64,000 bases of DNA from Escherichia coli (GTDB lineage: Bacteria > Pseudomonadota > Gammaproteobacteria > Enterobacterales > Enterobacteriaceae). The translations under genes and the position numbers were made by a program. Below the pieces are notes generated by a model, which was not told where the DNA came from, did not search any database, and saw nothing but the letters and a program-made list of their open reading frames with translations. Where the stretch lies: assembly GCF_044324875.1 (NCBI RefSeq), contig NZ_CP172185.1. One strand, written 5' to 3'. Shown one piece after another: positions 1 to 28,182 of the stretch (positions are counted from its first letter, which is position 1; each line of letters starts with the position of its first letter).

Positions 1-1725
<1,725 letters not shown>

Positions 1726-1793
1726 GTCTGAATCCGGCCGACCCAAAATTTTCCCCCAAGCTTCTCCCGGTATCTTTTAAGAGTATTGATTAC

Positions 1794-3002
1794 ATGAACG
1801 ACACCGTTTTAAACGTAATCCCGGTGCCTGTACGCACTTGGGTGGCTATAGCAGCGCTCGGTATCAGTGCATTTTCGATTGTGACCAGCGAGCTTGCGCC
1901 TGTTGGCATGCTTAGTATGCTAGCAAAGGACCTGAACCAGACTGAATCGGACACGGACCTTGTCGTGACTGCATACGGCTGGGTTGGGGCTCTGGCAGCA
2001 CTTTTGTCTGGATTGATACCAGCGAGAATTTCACGTAAGTCTTTGTTAGTGACTCTTATGGTAGTGTTTGCTTTGTCTTGTGTGGCGGCGACACAGTCAT
2101 CACTCGATGACCCTATTTATGGGGGCGCGTATGACAGGCGCTTTAGCACATGGTGCTTTCTGGGCTTTGATTGGAGCAGTGGCTTCACAGCTTGTTCCGG
2201 CTGAAAAACTAGGACTGGCCACCTCAGTTATTTTTGGCGGCGTTTCGGCTGCCAGCGTTCTGGGTGTGCCACTGTCGAGTTTTATTGCGGATATGGCCGG
2301 GTGGCGGAGTGCGTTTACGGCGATTTCTCTGCTGTCACTTGCCGCCGCCTGTGCTCTATTCTGGACGCTCCCCACACTGACGGTGCCACAACCACTGAGG
2401 CTGCGTGTTTACTACGGGATATTCAAAAACCCGGTGCTCCTTTCCCTCTATGGTGCCACTGCCTGTATTATTTCGGCTCATTTTGCGGCATTCACTTACC
2501 TCCAACCACTACTGACGAAGACTCAGGAAGTACCGACGGCTTCGATTTCTGGCCTACTGCTGATGTCCGGGCTCTCCGGTCTGGCCGGAAATATCATTGC
2601 CGGAAAGCTGATCGACCGTCATATCAAAGGGCTGATTTTCGCTTCACTGCTCCTGAGCGCAGGTGCGCTCGGCATACTTGGTATGAGGAGCGCTGCACCA
2701 CTGCCTTTCTGGTTCACAGGCATACTGCTCGCAGTTTGGGGCGCGGGTATCGCCATTGTATTCGTTGGGTTGCAGACAGGTTGCTCCGTAGCGCCGGGGA
2801 TGCTGTACAACCGGCGTCAGCCATTTACGTTACAATTTTTAACGCAGCGATCGGCACCGGTGCGCTTGTGGGAGGCCAGGTATTAGCCGTAAAAGGTATT
2901 CAGGGTATGGCCTTACTTGCTGCGGGCATCATTGCATGCAGCATAGCTCTGGTCGCAATGCTGAAAAGCCCCGCGAATAAGCTCAGGCCTGAAAGGTCGT
3001 GA
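1794..3002 (+). pseudogene. MFS transporter (DHA1 / sugar-efflux-like) disrupted by two frameshifts
   Basis: Three consecutive overlapping ORFs in different frames (1722-2204, 2068-2886, 2301-3002) together give a continuous 12-TMS-like MFS protein. Frame switches fall near 2100-2200 and 2800-2880. Confidence 0.65.
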
Positions 3003-3370
3003 CGAATTCAAAAACGCATTAACCGACAGTAATTAAATGAGAGGGACGTGTCAGAAGAGGCTTCCCCTTATTTTATACGTCCAGTTCGGTAAAGAGTATT
3101 AGCCCACAGGACGAGGCTTATCCGAAACTACAACTCTGAAGGATTTAGTTAATCGCTTTAGAATTTCCAACTTCCGTTCCTCGCTCACAGCAGACCTTAA
3201 GATCTAGGAGGGAGTCCGCTCAGTGCCATGGGCGGACCTTAAGCTTCAGTAATTTGATTAGCACAATCCCTATGATAAATAGACTGGCCCCCTGAATCTC
3301 CAGACAACCAGTATCACTTAAATAAGTGATAGTCTTAATACTAGTTTTTAGACTAGTCATTGGAGAACAG

Positions 3371-3736
3371 ATGATTGATGTCTTAGGGCCGGAGAAACGC
3401 AGACGGCGTACCACACAGGAAAAGATCGCAATTGTTCAGCAGAGCTTTGAACCGGGGATGACGGTCTCCCTCGTTGCCCGGCAACATGGTGTAGCAGCCA
3501 GCCAGTTATTTCTCTGGCGTAAGCAATACCAGGAAGGAAGTCTTACTGCTGTCGCCGCCGGAGAACAGGTTGTTCCTGCCTCTGAACTTGCTGCCGCCAT
3601 GAAGCAGATTAAAGAACTCCAGCGCCTGCTCGGCAAGAAAACGATGGAAAATGAACTCCTCAAAGAAGCCGTTGAATATGGACGGGCAAAAAAGTGGATA
3701 GCGCACGCGCCCTTATTGCCCGGGGATGGGGAGTAA
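3371..3736 (+). CDS. insC: IS2 InsC (OrfA, HTH)
   Basis: Translation reads [56 protein letters not shown].... Confidence 0.85.
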
Positions 3737-4599
3737 GCTTAGTCAGCCGTTGTCTCCGGGTCTCACGTGCGCAACTGCATGCCATGGCCCGTCGGTCGAA
3801 GGACTGGCAGGATCGTCGGTGCAAGCGCAAGCCTGATGATACTGACGCGCTGGCCCGTATCCATACCGTTATCGGCGATCTGCCCACCTATGGTTATCGT
3901 CGGGTATGGGCACTGCTGCGCAGACAATCAGAAACTGACGACATGGCGGTGATCAATGCCAAACGCGTATACCGCATCATGCGTCAGAATGCGCTGCTGC
4001 TTGAGCGTAAACCGGAAATACCGCCATCGAAGCGGGCGCATACAGGGAAAGTGGCCGTTGGAGAAAGTAACCAGCGGTGGTGCTCTGACGGCTTCGAGTT
4101 CAGCTGTGATAACGGTGAAAAACTGCGGGTCACGTTCGCTCTGGACTGTTGCGATCGCGAGGCACTTTACTGGGCGGCCAGTAACGGTGGATATGACAGT
4201 GAAACCGTGCAGGACGTCATGCTGGGTGCCGTGGAGCGTCGTTTCGGTAACAGCCTGCCGACATCCCCAGTTGAGTGGCTGACAGACAACGGTTCAGCCT
4301 ACCGTTCTTATCAGACGCGTCAGTTCGCCAGAATGGTAGGACTGGAGCCTAAACATACGGCGGTACGTAGCCCGGAAAGCAACGGGATGGCAGAGAGCTT
4401 CGTGAAAACGATGAAGCGCGATTACATCAGCATCATGCCGAAACCCGACGGGTTAACAGCGGTAAAGAACCTTGCGGAGGCCTTCGAACATTACAACGAA
4501 TGGCATCCGCATAGTGCACTGGGGTATCGTTCGCCACGGGAATATCTGCGGCGGCGAACCAGTAATGGGTTAAGTGATAAAAAGTGTATGGAAATATAG
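3694..4599 (+). CDS. insD: IS2 InsD (OrfB, DDE integrase core); expressed as InsCD by a -1 frameshift
   Basis: 301-aa ORF with the retroviral-integrase-like core ...[11 protein letters not shown]...[12 protein letters not shown]. It overlaps insC in the -1 frame. Confidence 0.85.
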
Positions 4600-4613
4600 G
4601 GGCCAATCCAATT

Positions 4614-4967
4614 GCACTGTTTCGAGGCTATCCGGCGACGATAAGAACTGACCAGGGGCCGGAGTTCACTTGCCGTGCACTGGATCAATGGGCCTTTGAG
4701 CATGGTGTTGAGTTGCGCTTAATCCAGCCGGGCAAGCCAACGCAGAACGGATTTATTGAGAGCTTTAACGGACGATTTCGCGATGAATGTTTGAATGAGC
4801 TCTGGTTCAGCGATATCGTTCATGCCAGGAAAATTATTAATGACTGGCGGCAGGATTATAACGAATGCCGCCCGCACTCCACGCTGAATTATCAGACACT
4901 GTCTGAATTTGCAGCGGGCTGGAGAAAGGGTCATTCTGAGAATGAAGATTCCGACGTTACTAACTGA
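4614..4967 (+). pseudogene. C-terminal remnant of an IS3-family (IS407-group) OrfB transposase, cut by IS2
   Basis: Begins immediately after the IS2 end and reads ...[54 protein letters not shown]...[10 protein letters not shown]. This is the DDE-core tail typical of the IS407 subgroup. No upstream half is present. Confidence 0.7.
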
Positions 4968-4979
4968 GTGTTGTATCTA

Positions 4980-5646
4980 ATCGTGGGGGCAGGTCACAGC
5001 TATACGGACACGGTCAAATAGAGCACTTGCTATAACTGATCTTAAACATCCTAAATTTGATGTTAGAGTTCAGATACATAGTTCTGCCGCAAGGTATGCA
5101 GATAAGTTAGCTGCTGAAATAGTTTCAGCATATTATGATAACTCTGAGCTGGCATATGAAAGCGATTCTCCGTTTCAATTTGGTGTTATTCGAGTTCCTC
5201 GTAACGCTACTCACTTTGAGCATTCATTATATGAAAAGTACTCAGGACTTAATAAGTTCGAGGCTCCTTTTGCTGAGGCTTTAGATAGGTCTGGTTACCC
5301 TTGGCACAGAAACCTGAGCAGTGGCGGTTTTCATATCCCACTATTGACAGAGGGTGATACAAGCTCATTTTATCCAGACTTTTTAGTATGGAAGTCAGAC
5401 CTTGTCTATTGCCTTGATACCAAGGGGGGCCATCTATTGACTGCTGCCGTAGCGCGCAAGCTTTTTAATATTCATGAAGATGGTCGGAGTAAGATTCTAG
5501 TGAGATTTATCACAGAAGGAAAGCAGACAGAGCTGCGCGGCAAAGCAACAAAGGGAGGATATACTGTATGGAAAATGAAATCTGGGCATCCTACCCCAAT
5601 TTATGTGGCGGATTTAGACAAAGCTGTTAGGGAATGTCTAAAATAG
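4980..5646 (+). pseudogene. C-terminal fragment of a restriction-endonuclease-like (type III Res-like helicase-nuclease) protein
   Basis: Low-GC open frame without a start codon. It ends ...SSFYPDFLVWKSDLVYCLDTKGGHLLTAA..., a PD...(D/E)XK nuclease motif (PDF...DTK) of the kind found at the C-terminus of type III Res and related defence helicases. Confidence 0.45.
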
Positions 5647-5792
5647 CGAAGCCATAGCATAGAATTTTTAATGGCATTATGATCAGGACATAAAGGACTT
5701 CATGCAGGGAAAAAATATCCCAAAAGAAACTGGTCATGTCAGCACACCAAAGGATCCTCGCCGGATCCTTTGGTTTTTCTCAGCCACAATCG

Positions 5793-5830
5793 CTTAACGT
5801 GAGTTTTCGTTCCACTGAGCGTCAGACCCC
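5793..5830 (-). repeat. Solitary Tn3-type 38-bp terminal inverted repeat
   Basis: cttaacgtgagttttcgttccactgagcgtcagacccc is the reverse complement of the Tn3 IR GGGGTCTGACGCTCAGTGGAACGAAAACTCACGTTAAG. The outer (GGGG) end is at 5830. The ~30 bp on the inner side resemble the IR-proximal sequence of Tn3. Confidence 0.75.
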
Positions 5831-5905
5831 TATAAACACCTTAGTGAAGTCATCCTCGCAGGTAAGGCAACACATCCGTAAGGTATTTGGCCAAATCAAA
5901 TACAA

Positions 5906-6901
5906 CTAGATTGACTCGCGGGGAAGCCAGGGACTCTCAACTATCACTTTATCCCGGTGGGTGTCACCATTGATAATGTGCAGTGTACTTAAGCGCCCAA
6001 TTTCATAATGCGGTAGCTGGACCGTGGATAATGGGGGTAAAAATAAGTTTCCAATGCCTACAAGATTGTCATAGCCAAGAACGGCAATATCCTGTGGGAT
6101 TCTGATACCCTGCGTTAACAATGTTTGATACACCATAAATGCAATACGATCGTTACCACAGATGACCGAATCAAATCGCGGTTTCCCCTGTTCGATATGC
6201 GCCAGCAACATCTCCGGAATATCTCGGTAGTGCTCATCGCCGAATTGCATATAGCAGTGCTCAAGCGTATCAGGATCGATACTGGCTTCCCTGCAGGCGC
6301 GATCAAGCCCACGACGACGACGACGCGTCGCCAGATGGTTGACGGGTAAATGCAGGCATAGAGGGCGGCTGTATCCTGCTGCCAGCAGTGCCTGTACGGC
6401 CGTATACTGGCCATGTTCATCGTCAGGTATATAGCTGGCAACCGGCTCTCCCTTGTTCTCGCAGTTGGCCAGAACGCAAGGAAGCTCCAGTAACCGGGGA
6501 GGAATACTGACTTCACGCAGCCCCATGGTAGTAAAAATGATCCCCCCGGGTCGATGGGCGAGCAGCAGGTCGACAATATCGTCAGGATTATCATCGGTAA
6601 ACATATTCACCACAAAGCTGTTCCAGCCATACGCCCGCGCGGTTTCTTCAATAGACAGCGTGATTTCTACTGAAAAAGGAGTGGTGACCGTATCCAGCGC
6701 AAGCACACCAATCGTTTTGTTCCGGGTGCCAACACGACGAATCTGCTGGGCAGAAAGGTCTGGCACATAATTTAACTGCGTGATCGCCTCCTGCACCCGA
6801 GCCAGAGTCTCAGGCTTTACGCGTTTCGGGTCATTCAGCACCCGTGAAACCGTCATGAGCGATACATTGGCCAGTTTGGCCACATCCTTTAAAGACGCCA
6901 T
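5906..6901 (-). CDS. fosR: LacI/GalR-family repressor, divergent from the fos operon
   Basis: 331 aa. N-terminal HTH reads MASLKDVAKLANVSLMTVSRVLN, followed by a periplasmic-binding-protein-like sugar-binding domain. It lies divergent to the transporter gene. Confidence 0.85.
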   Translation of the reverse strand: MASLKDVAKLANVSLMTVSRVLNDPKRVKPETLARVQEAITQLNYVPDLSAQQIRRVGTRNKTIGVLALDTVTTPFSVEITLSIEETARAYGWNSFVVNMFTDDNPDDIVDLLLAHRPGGIIFTTMGLREVSIPPRLLELPCVLANCENKGEPVASYIPDDEHGQYTAVQALLAAGYSRPLCLHLPVNHLATRRRRRGLDRACREASIDPDTLEHCYMQFGDEHYRDIPEMLLAHIEQGKPRFDSVICGNDRIAFMVYQTLLTQGIRIPQDIAVLGYDNLVGIGNLFLPPLSTVQLPHYEIGRLSTLHIINGDTHRDKVIVESPWLPRESI

Positions 6902-7031
6902 AGTTTTCCATTATCTGAATGCATACACCCGGTAAGGTGTTGTGAGCAAATGCGAATGCCCTATTCTAGGCACGGACACCCAGGGTTATGCAGACCACTC
7001 TGATAAATTTGAGCTAGATCTCAACATTTCA

Positions 7032-7044
7032 ATGTTAACGTTAA
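7032..7044. promoter_or_regulatory. Candidate LacI-family operator palindrome in the fosR-fosT intergenic region
   Basis: tgttaacgttaac is a near-perfect palindrome with a central CG, ~100 bp upstream of fosT. Confidence 0.35.
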
Positions 7045-7141
7045 CTTTTGTGATTAACATCGACAAACAAATCAAAATCGAGTGTCCCCCCAAAATGATA
7101 ACGTTACCATATTAGCATATCCTTCTTACGAGATTACGTAG

Positions 7142-8380
7142 ATGAAAAAACGGCCTACTCGAAGTTACATGCTGCTCAGCGCTCTGCTGTTCTTTTTCTT
7201 TGTGACCTGGTCCTCATCAAGTTCACTGCTCTCAATCTGGCTTCACCAGGAAGTGGGGCTAAAAGCATCGGAAACCGGCATTATTTTTTCAGTATTATCC
7301 GTCTCCGCGCTCTTCGCGCAGGTCTGTTATGGCTTTATTCAGGACCGACTTGGTCTGCGCAAACATTTGTTATGGTTTATCACCGCGTTGTTGATCCTCT
7401 CCGGCCCGGCTTATCTGCTTTTTAGTTATTTGCTGAGCGTTAATATTCTGCTGGGCAGCGTATTCGGGGGCTTATTTATCGGGCTGACGTTTAATGGGGG
7501 TATCGGCGTTCTGGAGTCCTATACCGAGCGCGTCGCGCGTCAAAGTACCTTTGAGTTTGGGCGGGCACGCATGTGGGGGTCTCTGGGCTGGGCAGTTGCC
7601 ACGTTTTTTGCCGGGTTACTGTTTAATATCAACCCTGACCTTAACTTCCTGGTGGCTTCATGCTCAGGGTTAATCTTCTTCTGCCTCCTGGCCCGATTAA
7701 AGGTGGCCGCGCCGGCAAGCATGGAGAAACTCGAAATTGGCGCTAAAAAAGTTTCTCTGGAAGACGCCCTGCGTCTGCTTACTCTGCCGCGCTTCTGGGC
7801 ACTGATATTCTTCGTGGTCGGAACCTGCATTTACGGCGTATACGATCAGCAATTCCCGGTCTATTTCTCATCACAGTTCCCGACATTACGCGAAGGGAAC
7901 GAGATGTTTGGCTATTTAAACTCTTTCCAGGTCTTTCTCGAGGCCGCAGGTATGTTTTGTGCGCCGTGGCTGGTTAATCGCATTGGTGCTAAAAATGGTC
8001 TGATATTCGCAGGAATGGTGATGGCGCTGCGCATGATTACTTCAGGGCTGGTGGAAGGCCCCCTGCTTATCTCCATTACCAAACTGCTTCACGCGGTCGA
8101 ACTGCCAATATTGTTAGTCGCCATATTTAAATACAACAGTCTGAATTTCGACAAACGTCTCTCCTCCACCATTTATCTGGTGGGATTTGCCTGCACCAGC
8201 TCCGTCATTGGTACCGTATTGTCCCCGCTGGCAGGCTTTAGCTATGAGAGATTTGGCTTCGCCCAATCCTATCTGATCATGGGCATCATGGTGTTCAGCA
8301 CCACGTTTATTTCCATTTTCCTTTTGCGCTCAACTAAATCCTCATCTGAGCCATCTTTTCTGCAGCAAAAAGCTGTGTAA
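7142..8380 (+). CDS. fosT: Oligosaccharide:H+ symporter (LacY/RafB/CscB-like MFS)
   Basis: 412 aa with 12 predicted TMS; OHS-family features throughout the sequence. Confidence 0.85.
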   Translation: MKKRPTRSYMLLSALLFFFFVTWSSSSSLLSIWLHQEVGLKASETGIIFSVLSVSALFAQVCYGFIQDRLGLRKHLLWFITALLILSGPAYLLFSYLLSVNILLGSVFGGLFIGLTFNGGIGVLESYTERVARQSTFEFGRARMWGSLGWAVATFFAGLLFNINPDLNFLVASCSGLIFFCLLARLKVAAPASMEKLEIGAKKVSLEDALRLLTLPRFWALIFFVVGTCIYGVYDQQFPVYFSSQFPTLREGNEMFGYLNSFQVFLEAAGMFCAPWLVNRIGAKNGLIFAGMVMALRMITSGLVEGPLLISITKLLHAVELPILLVAIFKYNSLNFDKRLSSTIYLVGFACTSSVIGTVLSPLAGFSYERFGFAQSYLIMGIMVFSTTFISIFLLRSTKSSSEPSFLQQKAV

Positions 8381-8399
8381 TGTACTGAGAATAAAGACG

Positions 8400-9833
8400 A
8401 TGACATCCTTATTAGAACAGGCTGAACAGGTGCTTGAAAAAGCACAATCCGGGATTAATCCGCGCTGGTATCCGCGCTATCACCTCGCCCCTCGCGCAGG
8501 CTGGATGAATGATCCTAATGGCCTGGTATGGTTTGACGGCTGGTATCACGCCTTTTATCAACACCATCCCTACTCCCCGAAATGGGGTCCGATGCACTGG
8601 GGGCACGCCCGAAGCAAAGATCTGGTGCATTGGGAACATTTGCCCGTCGCGCTAGCGCCGGAAGGCCCGGCGGACAAAGACGGCTGTTTCTCAGGTTCCG
8701 CCGTGGTGGACGGCGATACGCTGGCGCTCATCTATACCGGACATAAATTTCACGGCCCGTCGGACACTGACGACAACCTCTACCAGGTGCAGTGTCTGGC
8801 GACCAGTCGTGACGGCATCCATTTTGAACGGCACGGCAAGGTGATTGATACACCGCCCGGACTGCATCACTTTCGCGATCCGAAGGTGTGGCGCGAAGGT
8901 GAGTTCTGGTACATGGTTGTCGGTTCCCGCGTGGAAAATACCGGTCAGGTGCGCCTGTACCGTTCCACCGATCTCCGCGAATGGCATGACGAAGGTATTT
9001 TCGCCGAGGCTGATGAAGGCAAGGGCTTTATGTGGGAATGCCCGGATTTCTTCCCCCTGGGAGAGAAGCGTGTCCTGATGTTCTCGCCGCAGGGCATGGC
9101 GGCGGAAGGGTATCACTATCGCAACCTGTTCCAGAGCGGTTATTTACTTGGGGACTGGCAGCCAGGTCAACCGTTCACCCACAGCGGACAATTTACTGAG
9201 CTGGACCACGGCCACGACTTTTATGCCCCGCAGAGTTTCCTGACCCCGGATGGCCGACGCATTGTCATCGGGTGGCTGGATATGTGGGAATCATCGATGC
9301 CCGAACAGCAGGATGGCTGGGCCGGAATGCTCTCGCTTCCTCGCGAATTAAGCCTTGTCGATGGTCGTGTGAGAATGAAACCTGCTGCCGAAGTGACCGC
9401 GCTGCGTGGCAGCTATTATCCCACGCCCGTCCGCTGTCTGAACAATCAGAACGTCCTTGTCGCGGCAAATGCCGACGCGGTCGAAGTTCAGTTGGCATGG
9501 GATTTGAGCGCATCGACGGCTGAACAGTTTGGTATCGCGTTGGGCGACGGGTTGAGAATTTACGTCGATGATCAGGCTGGGCGTCTGGTGGTGGAGCGCC
9601 GCTATCCGGAATATTCGCTGGAAGGCACTCGCAGTATTCCGCTTCCAGCAGACAGCGTTCTGTCACTGCGAATTTTTATTGACCGCTCATCGGTGGAAGT
9701 TTTTGTTAACGATGGTGACGCTTGCTTAAGCAGTCGTATTTATCCGCAGCCGGGCGAGCGTGATATTTCATTGTTTGCAAATCTGGGGAAGGCCTCATTA
9801 TACGATGCGGGATACTGGTCTTTAGATAAATAA
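8400..9833 (+). CDS. fosGH2: GH32 beta-fructofuranosidase, cytoplasmic (sucrose-6-P hydrolase / invertase-like)
   Basis: 477 aa. Carries the GH32 N-terminal WMNDPNGL motif, the RDP motif (HFRDPKV) and EC motif (WECPDF). No signal peptide. Confidence 0.85.
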   Translation: MTSLLEQAEQVLEKAQSGINPRWYPRYHLAPRAGWMNDPNGLVWFDGWYHAFYQHHPYSPKWGPMHWGHARSKDLVHWEHLPVALAPEGPADKDGCFSGSAVVDGDTLALIYTGHKFHGPSDTDDNLYQVQCLATSRDGIHFERHGKVIDTPPGLHHFRDPKVWREGEFWYMVVGSRVENTGQVRLYRSTDLREWHDEGIFAEADEGKGFMWECPDFFPLGEKRVLMFSPQGMAAEGYHYRNLFQSGYLLGDWQPGQPFTHSGQFTELDHGHDFYAPQSFLTPDGRRIVIGWLDMWESSMPEQQDGWAGMLSLPRELSLVDGRVRMKPAAEVTALRGSYYPTPVRCLNNQNVLVAANADAVEVQLAWDLSASTAEQFGIALGDGLRIYVDDQAGRLVVERRYPEYSLEGTRSIPLPADSVLSLRIFIDRSSVEVFVNDGDACLSSRIYPQPGERDISLFANLGKASLYDAGYWSLDK

Positions 9834-9997
9834 TTCTCCGTTCCGACCTGTTTCTTGCAGGGTGAGTTTTTATTTCTGCCAGTCTCTGGCTGGCATGTTA
9901 TTGTCTGGAATAATGAGAGAGCAAAATGGATGAAAGCGTAATACCTCAAAATTGCATTACCTCGAAAGATAAAAATATATTTGTTCCAGGAAAACAG

Positions 9998-11191
9998 ATG
10001 CTGGCATTAATGGTGACATTAGCAGCATTTCCTGCCATTGCTGAAGACGTTACAGGAAACTATCAAAGCTATTTTCAGGATGAATCAGACACCAACGGTA
10101 CGAGTGTTTCATTAGCCAATCAAGGCAATGAAAAATCATCCCTTAGCGCTTCATCTTCTCCGGTTGCTGCAGGTCAAAAACCTGAACTCACGACCTCGTC
10201 AAAGCCAGTGACGTTATCGGCACCAATGGAGAATAAGAAAACTGCAGTAGAAAAACGTCCTAAAGGGGATAACCCTAAAGATGTCAGTCTGTTGCGTTTA
10301 AGGCAGGAAGATCCGCCGGTTCACTGGAACAGTATTGGTCGTAACATGGAAGTGGGTAGCTTGCATGGGAACATTGGATCTCAGATAGAAATTGACGATG
10401 TTCGCTGGAGCAATAATAAGAAAAACAGCGGCAAGTTTAAACTCGCCACCATTCAGGCTTTTTTAAGGCACGATGAATTGCCTAACTGGTATTTCGGTTT
10501 CTGGAATGCCAGAGAAGACAGTTATAAAGGACAGTTCAGTAATCAGGACTATAAAGGCACCAATACCATCAATGAATTTTTTGTGGGCCATATTTTCGAA
10601 ACCTGGCGGGGTAATATCGGTACGGAAGTCATGGTCGGCTCCGAAACGGCAACTAAACGCTGGAAAAACCGGTTCAAAGTCTGGCAGGACCTGCGACTGT
10701 CCAACAAATGGAGCCTGGCCGGATACGCGTATGGCGAGTATCAGCCTCAGGGGAACGAACCGGGGAATGGCGATCTGGAGCAGTACATTTTCGAAATTGA
10801 GCCAGCCATTCAATACCGCGTGAATCCGGATCTCGGACTCTATTTGCGGCCCTATTATTACCATAACCGCCAGGAGCGTCAGAGCTGGGGCGACATTGTA
10901 GAAGAAGAATGGAAAGTCACGGCCGGGCTCTGGCGAAACTGGTATCCATTATTAACCTCCCTGTATGTTGGATTTGGCCAGGACAAAATAGATAACGCCA
11001 GCAATGCCAGCGAAGTTTTCTATGACGGCCGTTATAAGTTTATCGGTGGAACGCTGAGTTATCCGGTATTTGGTGAGGTGCGATTATATGGTGAATTCAA
11101 GGCACAATTTACGAAAGAAACCGGACTTTGGACATCAACCGGTCACTCATGGAATCCGTTTACCGTGGTTGGCGTGAATTATAACTTCTGA
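9998..11191 (+). CDS. fosX: Putative outer-membrane beta-barrel protein (candidate oligosaccharide porin); ORF may start at 9926
   Basis: Signal peptide MLALMVTLAAFPAIA begins at 9998. The protein is rich in aromatic/Gly residues and ends ...VGVNYNF with a C-terminal Phe. It is a paralogue of the ORF at 12712-13725 (shared WRNW and NYNF/DYNF motifs). Confidence 0.6.
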   Translation: MLALMVTLAAFPAIAEDVTGNYQSYFQDESDTNGTSVSLANQGNEKSSLSASSSPVAAGQKPELTTSSKPVTLSAPMENKKTAVEKRPKGDNPKDVSLLRLRQEDPPVHWNSIGRNMEVGSLHGNIGSQIEIDDVRWSNNKKNSGKFKLATIQAFLRHDELPNWYFGFWNAREDSYKGQFSNQDYKGTNTINEFFVGHIFETWRGNIGTEVMVGSETATKRWKNRFKVWQDLRLSNKWSLAGYAYGEYQPQGNEPGNGDLEQYIFEIEPAIQYRVNPDLGLYLRPYYYHNRQERQSWGDIVEEEWKVTAGLWRNWYPLLTSLYVGFGQDKIDNASNASEVFYDGRYKFIGGTLSYPVFGEVRLYGEFKAQFTKETGLWTSTGHSWNPFTVVGVNYNF

Positions 11192-11205
11192 TATTCAGGT
11201 GTAGC

Positions 11206-12699
11206 ATGAAAAAATTAATAGTTGCGGCATCTTTCGCTCTGCTTGCGCTTTCGCTCGGCAATAACCCTGCCTGGTCACAGCCTTCGAAAGAGACATTACA
11301 GAATAAAAGCATCACCCATATTAATGGCTTTTTTCCGAGGGTTGAAGGTTCATTCGTGGGCGACCCTATGCCCGTTTTTAACGATGGCAAATTTGATATT
11401 TATTATCTTAATGATGTCCGAGGCGGCAGCGATCTGGGGGTACATGCTTTTCATCTCTTGTCGAGTGCCAACTTGTATGATTATCAGAACCATTCGGAAG
11501 TGATCCCCTACGTTAACGACGTTGACGATCCTGAACTGTTATTGGGAACCGGTTCGATTATTAAAGTCGGCGATACCTGGCATGCCTGGTACACCGCACA
11601 CAATGAAAATGTGTTCCCGGTTGAGTCTGTTATGCACGCGACCAGTAAGGACCGCCTTCACTGGGTGAAACACCCGCAGGACACCCTGTTACCCGGCGGT
11701 AACTATCGGGGTAATGATTTCAGGGACCCTCACGTCGTTTGGGTTGAGGAAAAGAAAGAATACTGGATGTTAATTACTACGCGCAGTAATGGTCGTGGGG
11801 TTATTGCCCGATACAGTTCAACGGATTTAAAGCACTGGGAAGATCGCGGCGTATTTTTTGATAACGACACCATCACCAGCAATGCCAACCTCGAATGCCC
11901 GACACTGGTTTACTTCAACGGACGCTGGTATCTCAGCTTTAGCGACCAATGGCCGTTACGCCTGACACAATACCGGGTTGCGGACAATCCGGAGGGGCCG
12001 TGGCGGAAACTGGACAATTATGTGGTCGACGGCTCAGGTTTTTACGCGGGTAAACTGGTTCTCAAAAACGATCGGCTGTTTGTTTTCGGCTGGATCCCGA
12101 CGAAAGCCGGTAACCGTGACAGCGGCAACATTGATTGGGCAGGGAATCTGGTTGCTCATGAGCTCACCGCAGATGCCCAGGGCCAGCTCAACAGCATCCT
12201 CCCCCAGGAGCTTCAGAAGGTCATCAGTGAGAATCCTGGCCCGGAAACCACCTTGACGAGCACTAAGACACTCAAAACGGACACGTCGTTCGGCCCCTTA
12301 CAGTCGGCGCTGTACCCGGCCTTGCCTGAGCGCGGTGAGTTGAGTGCAACCATCGATGTTCCTTCTGCCGGAATGGTGATGAGCTTTGGTCTGACCGACG
12401 ACAGAGTCAGTGATGCGATGCTGAACGTTGTGTTCAATAAGAGCAAAGGAAAAGTCTATTTTTTCAACGCGCCGCTAGCGTCGATTCATCAGGCTAACGC
12501 GGAATCCTGGGTGGACATTCCGATCGGGGAAAAAATTGAGTTACGCGTTCTCATACAAAACTCAATTGCTGTCTTTTATATAAACAACAAAGTGGCATTC
12601 AGTACCCGGATGTATTCCATGCAGGAGAAACCGTGGAGTATTAGCCTGCCTCAAAACGACCATTTTCACGCGACGTTGAAAATAAAAGAAATGATTTAA
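11206..12699 (+). CDS. fosGH1: GH32 fructan/fructooligosaccharide hydrolase with signal peptide (periplasmic/exported)
   Basis: 497 aa. Signal peptide MKKLIVAASFALLALSLGNNPAWSQ, then the GH32 motifs (RDPHV, ECP). Confidence 0.8.
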   Translation: MKKLIVAASFALLALSLGNNPAWSQPSKETLQNKSITHINGFFPRVEGSFVGDPMPVFNDGKFDIYYLNDVRGGSDLGVHAFHLLSSANLYDYQNHSEVIPYVNDVDDPELLLGTGSIIKVGDTWHAWYTAHNENVFPVESVMHATSKDRLHWVKHPQDTLLPGGNYRGNDFRDPHVVWVEEKKEYWMLITTRSNGRGVIARYSSTDLKHWEDRGVFFDNDTITSNANLECPTLVYFNGRWYLSFSDQWPLRLTQYRVADNPEGPWRKLDNYVVDGSGFYAGKLVLKNDRLFVFGWIPTKAGNRDSGNIDWAGNLVAHELTADAQGQLNSILPQELQKVISENPGPETTLTSTKTLKTDTSFGPLQSALYPALPERGELSATIDVPSAGMVMSFGLTDDRVSDAMLNVVFNKSKGKVYFFNAPLASIHQANAESWVDIPIGEKIELRVLIQNSIAVFYINNKVAFSTRMYSMQEKPWSISLPQNDHFHATLKIKEMI

Positions 12700-12711
12700 C
12701 GGGATATTATT

Positions 12712-13725
12712 ATGAAAAACTATCATGCCCTGTCTGTTATTTTTACTCTTATGTTACCCGCGCTGGCGAATGCGAGCATGAGCATCATGAAGGATCCGTC
12801 TGGAAAGGTTATCGCCGTGGACCCTTGGTCATATCTTGATGAAGATGTTATGTGGACCTCAGCCCGCTCCTCCAATCCTGCCGGTGGCCGCGTTCATGGC
12901 CAACTGAAAATGAAATATGCCATTGAGGATAATAACTGGCGTAACAGCCATTTCCACAACGGGAATGATTCGCTGACGTTTGTACAAGGTGTGATGCGGC
13001 ACGATGCGTTACCCGGTTGGTATCTGGCTTTCTCTGAGGGCAGAACCACTAACTATAACGGGACGTGGGAGGATCAGTCTTACCTCAGCCAAAACCAGTG
13101 GACTCAGTTGATCATCGGCCATGAATATTTTTACAAGCGTCTGCGCTATGGCTGGGATGTGATGGGAGGAAGCGCCTCAATCGAAGACCGCTGGCAAGGC
13201 CGCGTTAAGTTCTTTACCGATCTTCGGGTTACGGATAATTTCTCATTCTTTAACTACCTGTATCAGCAGATCGATCACCGGCGCAGCGGTGGGTCGCAAA
13301 ACGACCGTGACGTGCGTTCATTTCAGATTGAGCCAGGCGTGCAATACATTATTAATAACAACACCGGTGTCTGGTTCCGCCAGCAGTTCGCATCTGCCAT
13401 TTTAGACAGGGCGCAGTGGGGCGATATCGACGAAAAAAGCTGGACCACGTCAGTCGGCGTCTGGCGAAACTGGGGGAAGTTATCCACAACGCTCAGCGGC
13501 GGTTATGGTCATTATAAGAAATACAATGCGCAACCTGAGGATGGCGAAGTCTTTCAGAATACCCGCAATCGCTTCCTGAAGGTATCGGCAAATTATCCTT
13601 TGACCTCTCGTTTTACCGTGTCCGGAGAAGTTACTGGTTCGTTGATCAAACAGAACGGAAGTTGGGTCACTAACGGTGAGGCCATTACCACTGAGTATAA
13701 GCTGATGCTGGATTATAACTTTTAA
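12712..13725 (+). CDS. fosY: Putative outer-membrane beta-barrel protein, paralogue of fosX
   Basis: 337 aa. Signal peptide MKNYHALSVIFTLMLPALANAS; C-terminal ...LMLDYNF. Shares the WRNWG and alternating-aromatic pattern with the 9998-11191 ORF. Confidence 0.6.
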   Translation: MKNYHALSVIFTLMLPALANASMSIMKDPSGKVIAVDPWSYLDEDVMWTSARSSNPAGGRVHGQLKMKYAIEDNNWRNSHFHNGNDSLTFVQGVMRHDALPGWYLAFSEGRTTNYNGTWEDQSYLSQNQWTQLIIGHEYFYKRLRYGWDVMGGSASIEDRWQGRVKFFTDLRVTDNFSFFNYLYQQIDHRRSGGSQNDRDVRSFQIEPGVQYIINNNTGVWFRQQFASAILDRAQWGDIDEKSWTTSVGVWRNWGKLSTTLSGGYGHYKKYNAQPEDGEVFQNTRNRFLKVSANYPLTSRFTVSGEVTGSLIKQNGSWVTNGEAITTEYKLMLDYNF

Positions 13726-15393: not shown

Positions 15394-15454
15394 TTACTGA
15401 TTTAGTGTATGATGGTGATTTTAAGTAAGCGACTCGTCAGAACCGTATTGATAT

Positions 15455-17026
15455 TTACTGAGAGCTCAGATCAACTTTCCAGGGCAACAGATCGCGTACC
15501 CGGTTTGCCGGCCAGTCCTGGATATGTTCAATGACGTAACGCAGCCACTTTTCTGGCTCCACATTGTTCAGACGGCATGTGCCGATCAGCGAGTACAACA
15601 CCGCCGCATGTTCACCACCGCTGTCGGAACCCGCGAACATCCAGTTTTTCCGGCCTACGGCCACTCCCCGTAAGGCGTTCTCTGCGATGTTGTTGTCGAT
15701 TTCCACCCAGCCATTACTGCAGTACACGTTCAGTGCATCCCACTGTTTCAGCAGGTATGCGAACGCTTTTGCCGTATCTGAGTGACGCGACAGTGTTTTC
15801 ATCTGTTGCTGTATCCAGTCATACAGTGACTGCATCAGTGGCGCGGCTCTGGCTTTTCTTGCCGCCAGACGCTGTTCTGCTGAACAGCCCCGGACCTCTG
15901 CCTCGATGGCATACAGTTCACCGATACGCTGCAGGGCTTCCGTGGTGATGTAGGTGGGCGCTCTTGCATGCACATCGTGGATTTTTCTCCGGGCATGAGC
16001 CATACACGCGGCTTCCGTTATTCTGCCGGATTCGTATAACGCCCGGTAACCACCGTAAGCATCGGCCTGAAGCACACCGCTGTAACCGGCCAGGTGATTT
16101 TGTGGATGGATACCTTTCCGGTCCGGACTGTACGCGAACCAGACCGCCGGGGGCATCTGTGAACCGGCGTTACGGTCATCACGGACGTAGACCCACAGCC
16201 GGGCTGTCCGGGTTTTACCGCTGCCCGGCTCCTGGACCGGGACGGGGATATCATCAGCATGGACTTTACCGGGCATCAGCACATACTGGCGCAGGACGTC
16301 ATACAGCGGCTCCAGCAGTTCAGCAACAGCACCTGTCCAGCGCCCCAGTGTGGCACGGCTCAGCTCCACTCCCTGACGACGGTATATTTCTGACTGGCGG
16401 TATAACGGCAGATGGTCTGCATATTTCCCGGTGACAACATGGGCCAGAAGCCCCGCTCCGGCATAACTGCGTGCAATGGGTTTTGAAGGTACTGGTGCCT
16501 GCACGATATGGTCGCACCGGCAACAGGCCTGTTTCGGACGTTGTGTTTCGATAACCTTAAAGGCGCTGCTGATAAGCTCCAGTTGCTCTGACACATCACA
16601 TCCCAGAGAACTGAGTTCACCACCACAGGCAGGACAGCATTCCTCTTCCGGCCGGATAACCCGGGTTTCACGGGGAAGTGAGGCCGGTAACGGTTTACGG
16701 GCTGAAGACTGGCGCAGGGCGGATGGCAGTACCGGGTCATATTGCTCACCCAGCGTTTCCGCCATTTCTTCCTGAAGTGCGCTGATTCGCTCCTGTGCTT
16801 CCTGTATCTGCCGTTCGGTTTTTGCACGAAGTTTTTCTGAGCTTTTACCGAACTGCATACGTTGCAGTTTCGCAACCAGCGCCTTCAGCCGGTTGATTTC
16901 GGAAGCATAAGCCGCCACCCGCTGTGAGAGCAGGCGGTTGTATTCAGCCATCTGGCGGATGGTGTCCTGTTGCGTCTGCAACAGTGCCCGCAGGCGGGCG
17001 TTCTCATGAGCAAGTGAGGTGTCCAT
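15455..17026 (-). CDS. tnpC: IS66-family transposase TnpC
   Basis: 523 aa with N-terminal coiled-coil/leucine zipper, a CxxC...CxxC zinc motif and the IS66 DDE core. Confidence 0.85.
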
Positions 17027-17045
17027 ATCCTCACTTTACAACGGG

Positions 17046-17393
17046 TTATATGCGGATTCCAGCGCGTTCCGTTCGTTTCGGGTGCTTCCAGTTGATACCT
17101 TCAAGAAGCATGGATAACTGAGCCGGAGTAAGGTGCACCTTGCCGTCACGGGTGACTGGCCAGACGAAGCGGCCCCGCTCCAGGCGTTTGGTGAAGAGGC
17201 ACAGTCCGTCACTGTCAGCCCACAACACTTTTATCTGGTCACCCCGGCGTCCGCGGAAGATGAACAGGTGTCCGGAGAACGGGTCATCCTTCAGGACGTT
17301 CTGAACTTTTGATGCCAGGCCGTTAAAGCCATTTCGCATATCGGTGATACCTGCAACCAGCCAGATACGCGAACCTGCAGGGAGAGATATCAT
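17046..17393 (-). CDS. tnpB: IS66-family Orf2 (TnpB)
   Basis: 115 aa starting MISLPAGSRIWLVAGITDMRNGFNGLA..., a conserved IS66 accessory protein. Confidence 0.85.
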   Translation of the reverse strand: MISLPAGSRIWLVAGITDMRNGFNGLASKVQNVLKDDPFSGHLFIFRGRRGDQIKVLWADSDGLCLFTKRLERGRFVWPVTRDGKVHLTPAQLSMLLEGINWKHPKRTERAGIRI

Positions 17394-18070
17394 CAGTGGC
17401 TGCTCCCTTTTATTTCGCGGATAAGTGTCTGTAATAACGCCGGCGTCAGTTTACCTTTAAGCCTGAGAGTTCCGGCCGGCAGAACCAGCTCACAACACAG
17501 ACTGTCGGACGGTGTATTTATCTGCTCTGGTTCCTGTGCGGGGGCCGGGATTTTATTATCCGGCTCCGGCGTTAACGTCACGGGAAGCAGTGCCGGCATA
17601 TTTTTTCCGGAAGGCAGCAGGCCACCTTTCCGGTATTGATGGCGCCAGTTGAAGAGCAGGTTATCGTTGATTCCGTTTTCCCGGGCGATCTGCGCCACAC
17701 AGGCTCCGGGCTGCAGTGACTGCTCCACTAAGGCGATTTTAAACTCATAAGGGAAGTTGGGCCGCCGGGGACGTTTTTTTACCACGGGGGCTTCGGATAT
17801 AACGGTGCTTTCAGGACGTACGACTGGTACCGTGGAAAATTGTCCGTAAAGGCAGGCATCAAGTTCCTGCTCCGACATGCCTGCGGGCAAAGGCCACGAA
17901 AGGCCAGCTCTCCGAAAGCGCACGAACATACTACAAACTGTTGATTTTGGTACACCCAGGCGACGCCCGGCCACAACCCGGGGTAAATGTTCTTCAAAGT
18001 GAAGACGTAAAGCTTCAGTGATCCAGGTCCGGTGTTTCATACGATAGTGTCCATTAAAAATGATGGACAT
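17393..18070 (-). CDS. tnpA: IS66-family Orf1 (TnpA, HTH)
   Basis: ORF of 225 aa overlapping tnpB by ATGA. The true start may be an internal Met, since IS66 Orf1 is usually shorter. Confidence 0.65.
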   Translation of the reverse strand: MSIIFNGHYRMKHRTWITEALRLHFEEHLPRVVAGRRLGVPKSTVCSMFVRFRRAGLSWPLPAGMSEQELDACLYGQFSTVPVVRPESTVISEAPVVKKRPRRPNFPYEFKIALVEQSLQPGACVAQIARENGINDNLLFNWRHQYRKGGLLPSGKNMPALLPVTLTPEPDNKIPAPAQEPEQINTPSDSLCCELVLPAGTLRLKGKLTPALLQTLIREIKGSSH

Positions 18071-18140
18071 TATTTTTGTAGAGCCGGAGGAAACAGACCA
18101 GACGGTTTAAATGAGCCGGTTACGATTTTAAGGTGCTTGC

Positions 18141-27794: not shown

Positions 27795-27889
27795 CTGGCG
27801 GAAGATCACAGGAGTCGAACCTGCCCGGGACCGCTGGCGGCCCCAACTGGATTTGAAGTCCAGCCGCCTCACCGGAGACGACGATCTTC
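27795..27889 (-). tRNA. selC: tRNA-Sec (selC)
   Basis: The reverse complement matches the E. coli selC sequence GGAAGATCGTCGTCTCCGGTGAGGCGGCTGGACTTCAAATCCAGTTGGGGCCGCCAGCGGTCCCGGGCAGGTTCGACTCCTGTGATCTTCCGCCA (95 nt). Confidence 0.95.
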
Positions 27890-28182
27890 CGCGCCTCGAT
27901 TGCTACATGGAGGCGGGGCGCATTATAGCTACTTCCTTGAGTTTCTACATCCCCCAGATCAGTTTTTTCCGCCTAATACACGCAGCGTATTATCACGGAA
28001 GCATTATAATTCATATAAAACCCATATTTTACAATGATATATGAGCGGAATTAACGCTACCACGATCACATAAAACAAGAATCATAAATTAATAACCAGA
28101 TATCGGAATATTCGCTCTCACAGGGATGGTTTACAAAATGCGTTATCGGTCTCAGCACCCCTATAGCATCAAGGAAAAGCAG

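What the first reader, a model, noticed from the sequence alone, without database searches (positions are those of the whole stretch)
4980..5830. Relic of a restriction/defence-type helicase-nuclease next to a solitary Tn3-type inverted repeat
A low-GC open frame with no start codon ends ...FYPDFLVWKSDLVYCLDTKGG..., the PD-(D/E)XK arrangement found at the C-terminus of type III Res subunits and related defence helicase-nucleases. A 38-bp sequence 150 bp downstream is the reverse complement of the Tn3 terminal IR (GGGGTCTGACGCTCAGTGGAACGAAAACTCACGTTAAG), with its outer end facing away from the fragment. The ~30 bp inside it resemble Tn3 IR-proximal sequence. This suggests a Tn3-family transposon that once carried a restriction/defence cargo gene and was later truncated by IS activity. 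The intact form could be a mobile defence module worth finding.
Basis: partly seen in the sequence, partly recalled or inferred. Interest (0 to 1): 0.55.

Follow-up and report, generated by a model that had tools for sequence, protein, structure and literature searches.

The report
Dead end-fragment of transposon Tn7442
This is the last 835 bp of Tn7442, an already described transposon that carries a restriction-modification system, left as a non-functional scar beside the sugar-utilisation (fos) genes of an E. coli genomic island; it is ordinary.

Summary
An exact 38-bp Tn3 terminal inverted repeat lies at 5793-5830 (- strand). An open frame with no start codon (4981-5646) ends in a PD...DxK motif.

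Window 4996-5830 is 99.76% identical to the last 835 bp of an 8,349-bp Tn3-family transposon found on plasmids of Citrobacter, Klebsiella, Enterobacter and Serratia. Its layout is IR, tnpA, tnpR, type III mod, res, IR. In size, structure and hosts it matches Tn7442 (Sattler et al., AAC 2022, PMC9664867).

The relic keeps only:
- codons 576-791 of the 791-aa Res subunit, which form the nuclease domain;
- the operon terminator;
- the right IR.

On the left it is cut by the intact end of an ISSen4 element. Other E. coli genomes carry the same ISSen4 end cutting further into the relic, at 5653 or 5684. On the right, the IR's outer base meets the fos locus exactly where plasmids and another chromosome show an uninterrupted "empty site".

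No tnpA, tnpR, mod or helicase part is present in the window, so the relic has no function. The element is already known and interest is low.

The parts
4996..5830 (+). Whole relic: the last 835 bp (positions 7515-8349) of a Tn7442-type Tn3-family transposon
   Evidence: 99.76% identity (2 mismatches) to L004:12426-13260, and to L005. No other part of the transposon matches anywhere in the 64-kb window.
4996..5646 (+). 3' end of the type III res gene: codons 576-791 of 791 plus the stop, encoding the PD-(D/E)XK nuclease domain. It has no start codon and no helicase domain.
5746..5774 (+). Intrinsic terminator hairpin of the mod-res operon: a 12-bp stem followed by TTTTT, 19 bp inside the IR
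   Evidence: Found by the terminator scan. The RNA fold has -20.5 kcal/mol and z = -3.97. It aligns with the hairpin-terminator at the bla-side end of Tn2/Tn3.
5793..5830 (-). Right terminal 38-bp inverted repeat of Tn3/Tn7442, with its outer end at 5830
   Evidence: Exact match, unique in the window, with 0 of 100 shuffles matching. The same IR ends the element in L002-L006, and both ends in L004.
5831..5835 (.). TATAA, the first bases of the target. This would be the right copy of the 5-bp target duplication; the left copy has been lost.
   Evidence: Uninterrupted sites in pEQ2 (L010), pLR-25_1 (L009) and the E. coli S43 chromosome (L011) read ...cagtgatcgt|TATAAACACC. Their homology to the window begins exactly at 5831.
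4611..4996 (+). 386-bp remnant of ISSen4 (IS3 family). Its intact terminal repeat (...GGGGGCAGGTCA, 4985-4996) forms the left boundary of the relic. Its other side is cut at 4611 by an ISEc27-like IS (transposase gene about 3370-4598).
   Evidence: 99.5% identity to the ISSen4 in L006. The end sequence was compared directly. The BEN2908 annotation agrees.

Best explanation
The feature is a non-functional scar of a Tn7442-type transposon.

**The intact element.** Tn7442 is 8,349 bp and belongs to the Tn3 family. Its layout is IR, tnpA, res site, tnpR, mod, res, terminator, IR. From what is known of Tn3, it moves by replicative transposition: TnpA acts on the 38-bp IRs and TnpR resolves the cointegrate. 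Its cargo is a type III restriction-modification operon. From what is known of type III enzymes such as EcoP15I, Mod hemimethylates an asymmetric site. REBASE predicts this site to be CCGCAG, as cited in PMC9664867. The Res-Mod complex uses the Res ATPase to communicate between two unmodified sites, and it cuts with the C-terminal PD-(D/E)XK domain.

**History of this locus.**
1. Shown: a copy inserted at TATAA, 75 bp beyond the 3' end of the fos regulator gene (5906-6901, - strand).
2. Shown for the junctions, inferred for the mechanism: an ISSen4 element then removed everything to the left by IS-adjacent deletion. This took out tnpA, tnpR, mod and res codons 1-575, plus at least 2 kb of the original fos flank.
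3. In this window the ISSen4 was itself later cut by another IS.

**What remains.** The relic holds the Res nuclease domain without a start codon, the terminator and one IR. It cannot transpose, methylate or restrict.
For: - The 835 bp at 4996-5830 are 99.76% identical to the right end of the complete element in L004 and L005, and nothing else of the element is in the window.
- L004:4912-13260 is 8,349 bp long and bounded by two exact 38-bp IRs. It contains a Tn3-family tnpA (NF033527, 1163 bits), a resolvase, a type III Mod and a ResIII protein.
- The published Tn7442 is 8,349 bp, with a Tn1 tnpA, a TnpR 87% identical to that of Tn2, and type III R-M cargo. It was reported in Citrobacter portucalensis, Hafnia and Klebsiella plasmids.
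- The empty site begins exactly at window 5831 in three independent replicons.
- The ISSen4 terminal repeat lies directly on res codon 576. The same IS end joins the relic at 5653 or 5684 in three other genomes, which is a nested deletion series.
- The relic carries one private substitution, D725A, at a residue conserved in at least 90% of close homologues. This fits loss of constraint.
- No usable start codon is present, and only consensus-level promoter matches occur, at the rate expected by chance.
Against: - I did not have the deposited Tn7442 sequence itself. Identity with Tn7442 rests on exact length, gene content, hybrid structure and host species, not on a direct alignment.
- The left target duplication is gone, so the 5-bp duplication cannot be verified at this site.
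- One substitution is too few to demonstrate relaxed selection.
- The restriction activity and recognition site of this R-M system are REBASE predictions. The plasmid-stability effect in the paper is a correlation.
Confidence: 0.95

Rival explanations
1. The 38-mer and its neighbourhood are the end of an ordinary blaTEM transposon (Tn1/Tn2/Tn3) or of pBR322-type vector DNA, unrelated to the upstream ORF fragment.
For: The IR is identical to that of Tn3. The 45 bp inside it resemble the bla-side end of Tn2/Tn3. Thousands of plasmids match 5784-5830 at 95.7%.
Against: Similarity to Tn2/Tn3 stops about 45 bp inside the IR, and even there it is only about 75% with gaps. By contrast, the whole 835 bp is colinear at 99.76% with the res-terminator-IR end of the R-M transposon. 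No bla sequence is present. Thirty E. coli chromosomes, including complete genomes, share the junction with fos, which rules out vector contamination.
Confidence: 0.02
2. The helicase-nuclease belongs to a defence system other than type III R-M, for example a standalone or newer helicase-nuclease system that merely sits beside a methyltransferase.
Against: The adjacent, overlapping upstream gene is an unambiguous type III Mod: PADLOC MTase_III 1e-76, H. pylori type III Mod 3e-40, EcoP15I Mod 6e-33. Pfam ResIII matches 26 of 30 diverse family members, and the family profile's best PDB hit is EcoP15I Res. No other PADLOC system matched. JGI and REBASE both label the family as type III.
Confidence: 0.05
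3. The relic is retained because it does something. It might act as a terminator or insulator protecting fosR and the fos operon from read-through out of the upstream IS elements, or it might express a stand-alone nuclease domain from the internal TTG ORF (5344-5646).
For: A strong terminator hairpin survives. The relic is 100% conserved in 27 genomes. A 100-aa ORF covers the catalytic core.
Against: The 100% identity extends across the neighbouring IS and fos DNA, so it reflects recent common descent rather than selection. Three genomes have lost all of the res part, and fos loci on plasmids lack the relic altogether. The terminator points towards fosR's 3' end, and fosR is read on the opposite strand. 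The 100-aa ORF would lack the invariant E664 helix.
Confidence: 0.03

Closest known systems
Tn7442 (Tn3-family transposon with type III R-M cargo; Sattler et al., Antimicrob Agents Chemother 2022, PMC9664867)
   Same: The right-end 835 bp (the 3' part of res, the terminator and the 38-bp IR) are 99.76% identical to the 8,349-bp element in a Citrobacter portucalensis plasmid. That element matches the published description in length, hybrid Tn1 tnpA / Tn2-like tnpR structure, cargo and host.
   Different: Only 10% of the element is present. tnpA, tnpR, the res site, mod, the Res helicase part and the left IR are missing. The relic is chromosomal, in a selC island beside the fos locus, rather than on a plasmid, and it is non-functional.
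Tn3 / Tn2 / Tn1 (blaTEM transposons)
   Same: The 38-bp IR is identical. A homologous hairpin-terminator lies just inside the right IR, and the backbone logic is the same, with cargo between tnpR and the right IR. In Tn7442 the tnpA is the Tn1 tnpA.
   Different: The cargo is mod-res instead of blaTEM. Similarity inside the IR fades after about 45 bp.
EcoP15I / EcoP1I type III restriction-modification enzymes
   Same: The operon order is mod then res. Mod is homologous (E = 6e-33 to EcoP15I Mod). Res has SF2 ATPase motifs (GAGKT, DEGH, SAT, QxxGRxxR) followed by a C-terminal PD-(D/E)XK domain. EcoP15I Res is the best PDB hit of the family profile.
   Different: Res is about 180 aa shorter and very divergent. 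Only the region around helicase motif VI aligns by sequence, and the nuclease domain is not detectably similar by sequence. None of this matters for the window, where only the nuclease domain survives.
IS-mediated adjacent deletions (IS3-family ISSen4)
   Same: A constant, intact IS end is joined to progressively shorter neighbouring DNA in different strains, at junctions 4997, 5653 and 5684.
   Different: Nothing unusual was seen. The mechanism is inferred from junction structure only.

Membership tests
Tn3-family transposon (specifically Tn7442) | 38-bp terminal inverted repeat of the Tn3 type | tested here: met
   Exact 38/38 match at 5793-5830 (-), unique in the window. The same IR terminates the intact element in L002-L006.
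Tn3-family transposon (specifically Tn7442) | Tn3-family DDE transposase TnpA | tested here: not met
   No tnpA sequence anywhere in the window. It is present in the intact plasmid copies (NF033527, 1163 and 1140 bits). The window therefore holds a fragment, not a member capable of transposition.
Tn3-family transposon (specifically Tn7442) | Serine resolvase TnpR plus res site | tested here: not met
   Absent from the window. Present in the intact copies (Pfam Resolvase 1e-39).
Tn3-family transposon (specifically Tn7442) | Insertion with a precise junction at the IR tip and a 5-bp target duplication | tested here: inconclusive
   The junction is precise: three uninterrupted sites share homology with the window starting exactly at 5831 (TATAA...). 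The left end and left duplicate have been deleted, so the duplication itself cannot be seen.
Tn3-family transposon (specifically Tn7442) | Sequence identity with the named element | tested here: met
   835 bp at 99.76% to the 8,349-bp element in C. portucalensis plasmid CP039328. That element fits the published description of Tn7442. I did not align directly to the registry sequence.
Type III restriction-modification system, Res subunit | N-terminal SF2 helicase-like ATPase (ResIII domain, motifs I, II, III, VI) | tested here: met
   Met for the intact protein: Pfam ResIII 7.5e-7 above the cut-off; invariant GAGKT, DEGH, SAT and Q425/G428/R429/R432; family profile against EcoP15I Res 1.3e-4. 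Not present in the window fragment, which starts at codon 576.
Type III restriction-modification system, Res subunit | C-terminal PD-(D/E)XK endonuclease domain | tested here: met
   [not shown]
Type III restriction-modification system, Res subunit | Partner type III Mod methyltransferase encoded immediately upstream | tested here: met
   Met in the intact element: mod (647 aa) overlaps res by 8 bp. PADLOC MTase_III 1e-76; 6k0w Mod 3e-40 and EcoP15I Mod 5.8e-33. Absent from the window.
Type III restriction-modification system, Res subunit | ATP-dependent cleavage that requires two inversely oriented unmethylated sites | not testable with these tools
   This is a biochemical property. Only REBASE predictions (site CCGCAG) are cited in PMC9664867.

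The most novel reading that the evidence does not exclude
The ~790-aa Res family that Tn7442 carries could be a mechanistically distinct, compact type III-like enzyme class. The family has more than 1,500 homologues and about 240 clusters at 50% identity. Its nuclease domain is not recognised by Pfam, NCBIfam or PADLOC, and its nearest structural neighbours are Bax1 and Can2-like nucleases. The relic would then also show that this R-M transposon was circulating in Enterobacteriaceae well before its 2022 description, since it is fixed in the fos island of old NCTC and APEC strains. This concerns the intact family, not the dead fragment in the window.
Probability: 0.08. Interest if true: 0.35.

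Novelty: already known. Interest (0 to 1): 0.1.

Why it matters
It matters little. The relic is a useful historical marker. It shows that the chromosomal fos (fructooligosaccharide) locus of the selC island once hosted a Tn7442-type R-M transposon and was then eroded by ISSen4. The plasmid-borne fos loci keep the uninterrupted site. It also confirms that R-M systems travel as Tn3-family cargo, which has already been published. No new biology or testable open question follows from the fragment itself.

Tried and rejected
- **Single-sequence and close-family PDB searches with Res** gave only non-significant XPB hits. EcoP15I Res appeared only with a diverse profile.
- **The full-length AF2 model** was poor (pLDDT 59.7). 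Its Foldseek search returned only generic SF2 helicases, which says nothing about the nuclease domain. I replaced it with a model of the C-terminal domain alone.
- **Pfam, NCBIfam and PADLOC** give no hit for the 221-aa window fragment on its own. NCBIfam gives nothing even for the full Res.
- **Target-site duplications** around the complete plasmid copies L004, L005 and L006 were not found (GTAAT/TATTC, GTTCA/AGACA, CTTTT/AATTC). These copies therefore sit in rearranged or recombined contexts.
- **A search for other pieces of the transposon** in the 64-kb window found none.
- **Literature searches** for Tn3-family type III R-M passengers and for Tn5403 were unproductive until a broader query found the Tn7442 paper. 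The BEN2908 genome paper does not mention the relic.
- **Correction of an early assumption.** I first assumed the window was colinear with BEN2908. It is not: the IS66 block lies at 15425-18124 in the window.

Full report
**1. What is in the sequence**

The 38-mer GGGGTCTGACGCTCAGTGGAACGAAAACTCACGTTAAG occurs exactly once in the window, at 5793-5830 on the minus strand. None of 100 shuffles gave a match. Its outer end (GGGG) is at 5830.

Upstream, the frame ending at the TAG at 5644-5646 is open back to 4981. It reads ...FYPDFLVWKSDLVYCLDTKGG.... No ATG/GTG/TTG-initiated ORF longer than 100 aa exists in that frame. GC falls to 0.40-0.44 across 5000-5800, against 0.50-0.56 on either side.

**2. 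Where the window comes from**

The region is 100% identical to chromosomes of 27 complete E. coli genomes, including the avian pathogenic strain BEN2908. There it lies in the selC-associated island that carries the fos (fructooligosaccharide) locus. The genes that follow are a LacI-family regulator at 5906-6901 (-), an MFS transporter, two GH32 hydrolases, OmpG-like porins and a kinase. tRNA-Sec is at 27796-27890.

**3. The intact element**

A blastn search of 4985-5792 against plasmids found 63 records, 55 of them at 99% identity or more. They come from Klebsiella, Citrobacter, Enterobacter, Raoultella, Serratia, Hafnia and E. coli. In these records the fragment is the 3' end of a 791-aa 'DEAD/DEAH box helicase family protein'.

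The complete context is tnpA (about 1,001 aa, leftward), then rightward tnpR (182 aa), a 647-aa DNA methyltransferase, the 791-aa protein overlapping it by 8 bp, and the IR. In Citrobacter portucalensis plasmid CP039328 (L004) two exact copies of the 38-bp IR bound an element of 8,349 bp, at 4912-13260.

**4. It is already named**

Sattler et al. (Antimicrob Agents Chemother 2022, PMC9664867) describe Tn7442 as an 8,349-bp Tn3-family hybrid. It has the Tn1 tnpA side, a TnpR 87% identical to that of Tn2, and a type III R-M cargo. The REBASE names are Kgr39ORF30055P and M.SmaBWH35ORF26500P, with predicted site CCGCAG. They found it in plasmids of K. pneumoniae, Hafnia paralvei and C. portucalensis, and it was associated with higher plasmid stability. 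Length, architecture, cargo and hosts all coincide with L004. I could not align to the registry sequence itself.

**5. Extent of the relic**

A blastn search of the full element against the window matches only window 4996-5830. This corresponds to element positions 7515-8349 at 99.76% identity; nothing else of the element is present. The fragment begins at codon 576 of res, in phase, so 216 of 791 codons remain.

One substitution is private to the chromosomal relic. C5444 is A in all five plasmid copies examined, giving D725A at a residue conserved in at least 90% of close homologues.

**6. Left boundary**

Window 4611-4996 is a 386-bp remnant of ISSen4 (IS3 family, 99.5% identity to the copy in L006). 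Its intact terminal repeat ...GGGGGCAGGTCA ends at 4996. At 4611 the ISSen4 is itself interrupted by an ISEc27-like element.

In other E. coli genomes ISSen4 is complete, and what lies to its left varies. In three genomes the same ISSen4 end is joined further into the relic, at window 5653 (SW070917, NCTC9064) or 5684 (GDSC2BY4G). In those genomes the res fragment has gone entirely. A constant IS end with nested endpoints in the neighbouring DNA is the signature of IS-adjacent deletions. The mechanism is inferred from these junctions.

**7. Right boundary**

Many plasmids carry the fos locus, among them IncHI1 pEQ2 and an IncY plasmid, as does the E. coli S43 chromosome. Their homology to the window begins exactly at 5831. 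Their sequence reads ...cagtgatcgt|TATAAACACC..., identical in three independent replicons.

This is the uninterrupted target. The IR tip therefore marks a true transposition junction, and TATAA is the presumed duplicated target. The original left flank is absent from the window. At least 2.2 kb of that flank is shared between pEQ2 and S43.

**8. Relation to Tn3 proper**

About 45 bp inside the IR align with the bla-side end of Tn2/Tn3, including the hairpin AAAGGATC...GATCCTTT. Thousands of plasmids match only 5784-5830. In the window this hairpin is a 12-bp-stem intrinsic terminator followed by T5 (5746-5774; -20.5 kcal/mol, z = -3.97). It also shows the same backbone with mod-res in place of bla.

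**9. Is the protein a type III Res with a PD-(D/E)XK C-terminus?**

*Mod.* Mod is unambiguous, with these matches:
- PADLOC MTase_III, 1e-76
- H. pylori type III Mod 6k0w, 3e-40
- EcoP15I Mod, 5.8e-33

*Res, helicase part.* Res is divergent.
- It matches Pfam ResIII at residues 10-207 (7.5e-7, above the cut-off) and PADLOC REase_III weakly. NCBIfam gives nothing.
- More than 1,595 homologues of about 790 aa exist, and several sources label them 'type III restriction enzyme'.
- Invariant residues include GAGKT, DEGH, SAT and the motif VI residues Q425, G428, R429 and R432.
- A profile of 30 diverse members has EcoP15I Res (4zcf_C) as its best PDB hit, at E = 1.3e-4. ResIII matches 26 of the 30 members.

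*Res, C-terminal domain.* An exhaustive search with the 216-aa fragment found 237 clusters, all C-termini of proteins of about 750-815 aa, or fragments of them.
- Across diverse members E664 and D703 are invariant, P702 is present in 29/30, position 716 is D or E in 30/30, and K718 is present in 24/30.
- The first, full-length model was poor (pLDDT 59.7) and gave only generic helicase matches.
- A model of the fragment alone, built with the diverse alignment, reached pLDDT 94.6 and pTM 0.88, with alpha-beta-beta-beta-alpha-beta topology around the motif.
- These scores are modest, but the matches are almost uniformly restriction-endonuclease-fold proteins.

I therefore accept the PD-(D/E)XK assignment with good, though not crystallographic, confidence.

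**10. Function in the window**

There is none. The relic lacks tnpA, tnpR, the second IR, mod, the ATPase part of res and a start codon, and no convincing promoter is present. Its perfect conservation among 27 genomes extends equally over the flanking IS and fos DNA. Some strains and all plasmid fos loci lack it. Conservation therefore reflects recent shared ancestry, not selection.

**11. Verdict**

The 'intact mobile defence module' exists, is common on enterobacterial plasmids, and has been described and named. The window contains only its dead right end. Novelty: already known. Interest: low.

Noticed in passing
window 4985-4996 junction; L015:3489-3500, L016:3489-3500, L007:9085-9096: The same intact ISSen4 end abuts the Tn7442 relic at three different points in different E. 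coli genomes: window positions 4997, 5653 and 5684. This is a nested series of IS-adjacent deletions that is progressively erasing the relic.
   Followed up: yes
L005:4909-13260 and L006 (Serratia marcescens and Citrobacter freundii plasmids): A second hybrid transposon carries the same tnpR-mod-res-IRR module. It has a different tnpA (65% aa identity) and a gamma-delta/Tn1000-like left IR that matches the right IR at only 29 of 38 positions. Homology with Tn7442 starts inside the 5' part of tnpA. No target duplication flanks either copy.
   Followed up: partly
L010 (pEQ2) 1-6000; L009; L011: The fos locus also occurs on IncHI1 and IncY plasmids and in another chromosomal context, with an uninterrupted left flank. 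In pEQ2 that flank lies next to TniQ-family and ATP-binding genes, so fos might be cargo of a Tn7-like or Tn5053-like element.
   Followed up: no
window 5444: A single private substitution in the relic (C here, A in all plasmid copies) changes Res D725 to A. This residue is conserved in at least 90% of close homologues but varies in distant ones.
   Followed up: yes
window 1-3116, 3109-4610 and 15425-18124: Dense IS debris surrounds the relic: IS100 istA/istB (about 1-1179), aldo/keto reductase and MFS pseudogenes, and an ISEc27-like IS3-family element (transposase gene about 3370-4598). An IS66-family block lies downstream of fos here (15425-18124), whereas it lies upstream in BEN2908, so the window is rearranged relative to that strain.
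   Followed up: partly
window 27796-27890 (-): This is the tRNA-Sec (selC) gene. By comparison with BEN2908 it marks the edge of the selC-associated island that contains the fos locus and the relic.
   Followed up: partly
[not shown]
   Followed up: no
E. coli hits H106-H108 and H114 (NCTC9041, NCTC9699, NCTC10444, NCTC9064): Old culture-collection strains already carry the relic or its further-deleted form. This suggests that Tn7442-type elements circulated long before the 2016-2020 clinical isolates in which Tn7442 was named. The strain ages come from my own knowledge of NCTC numbering and were not checked.
   Followed up: no
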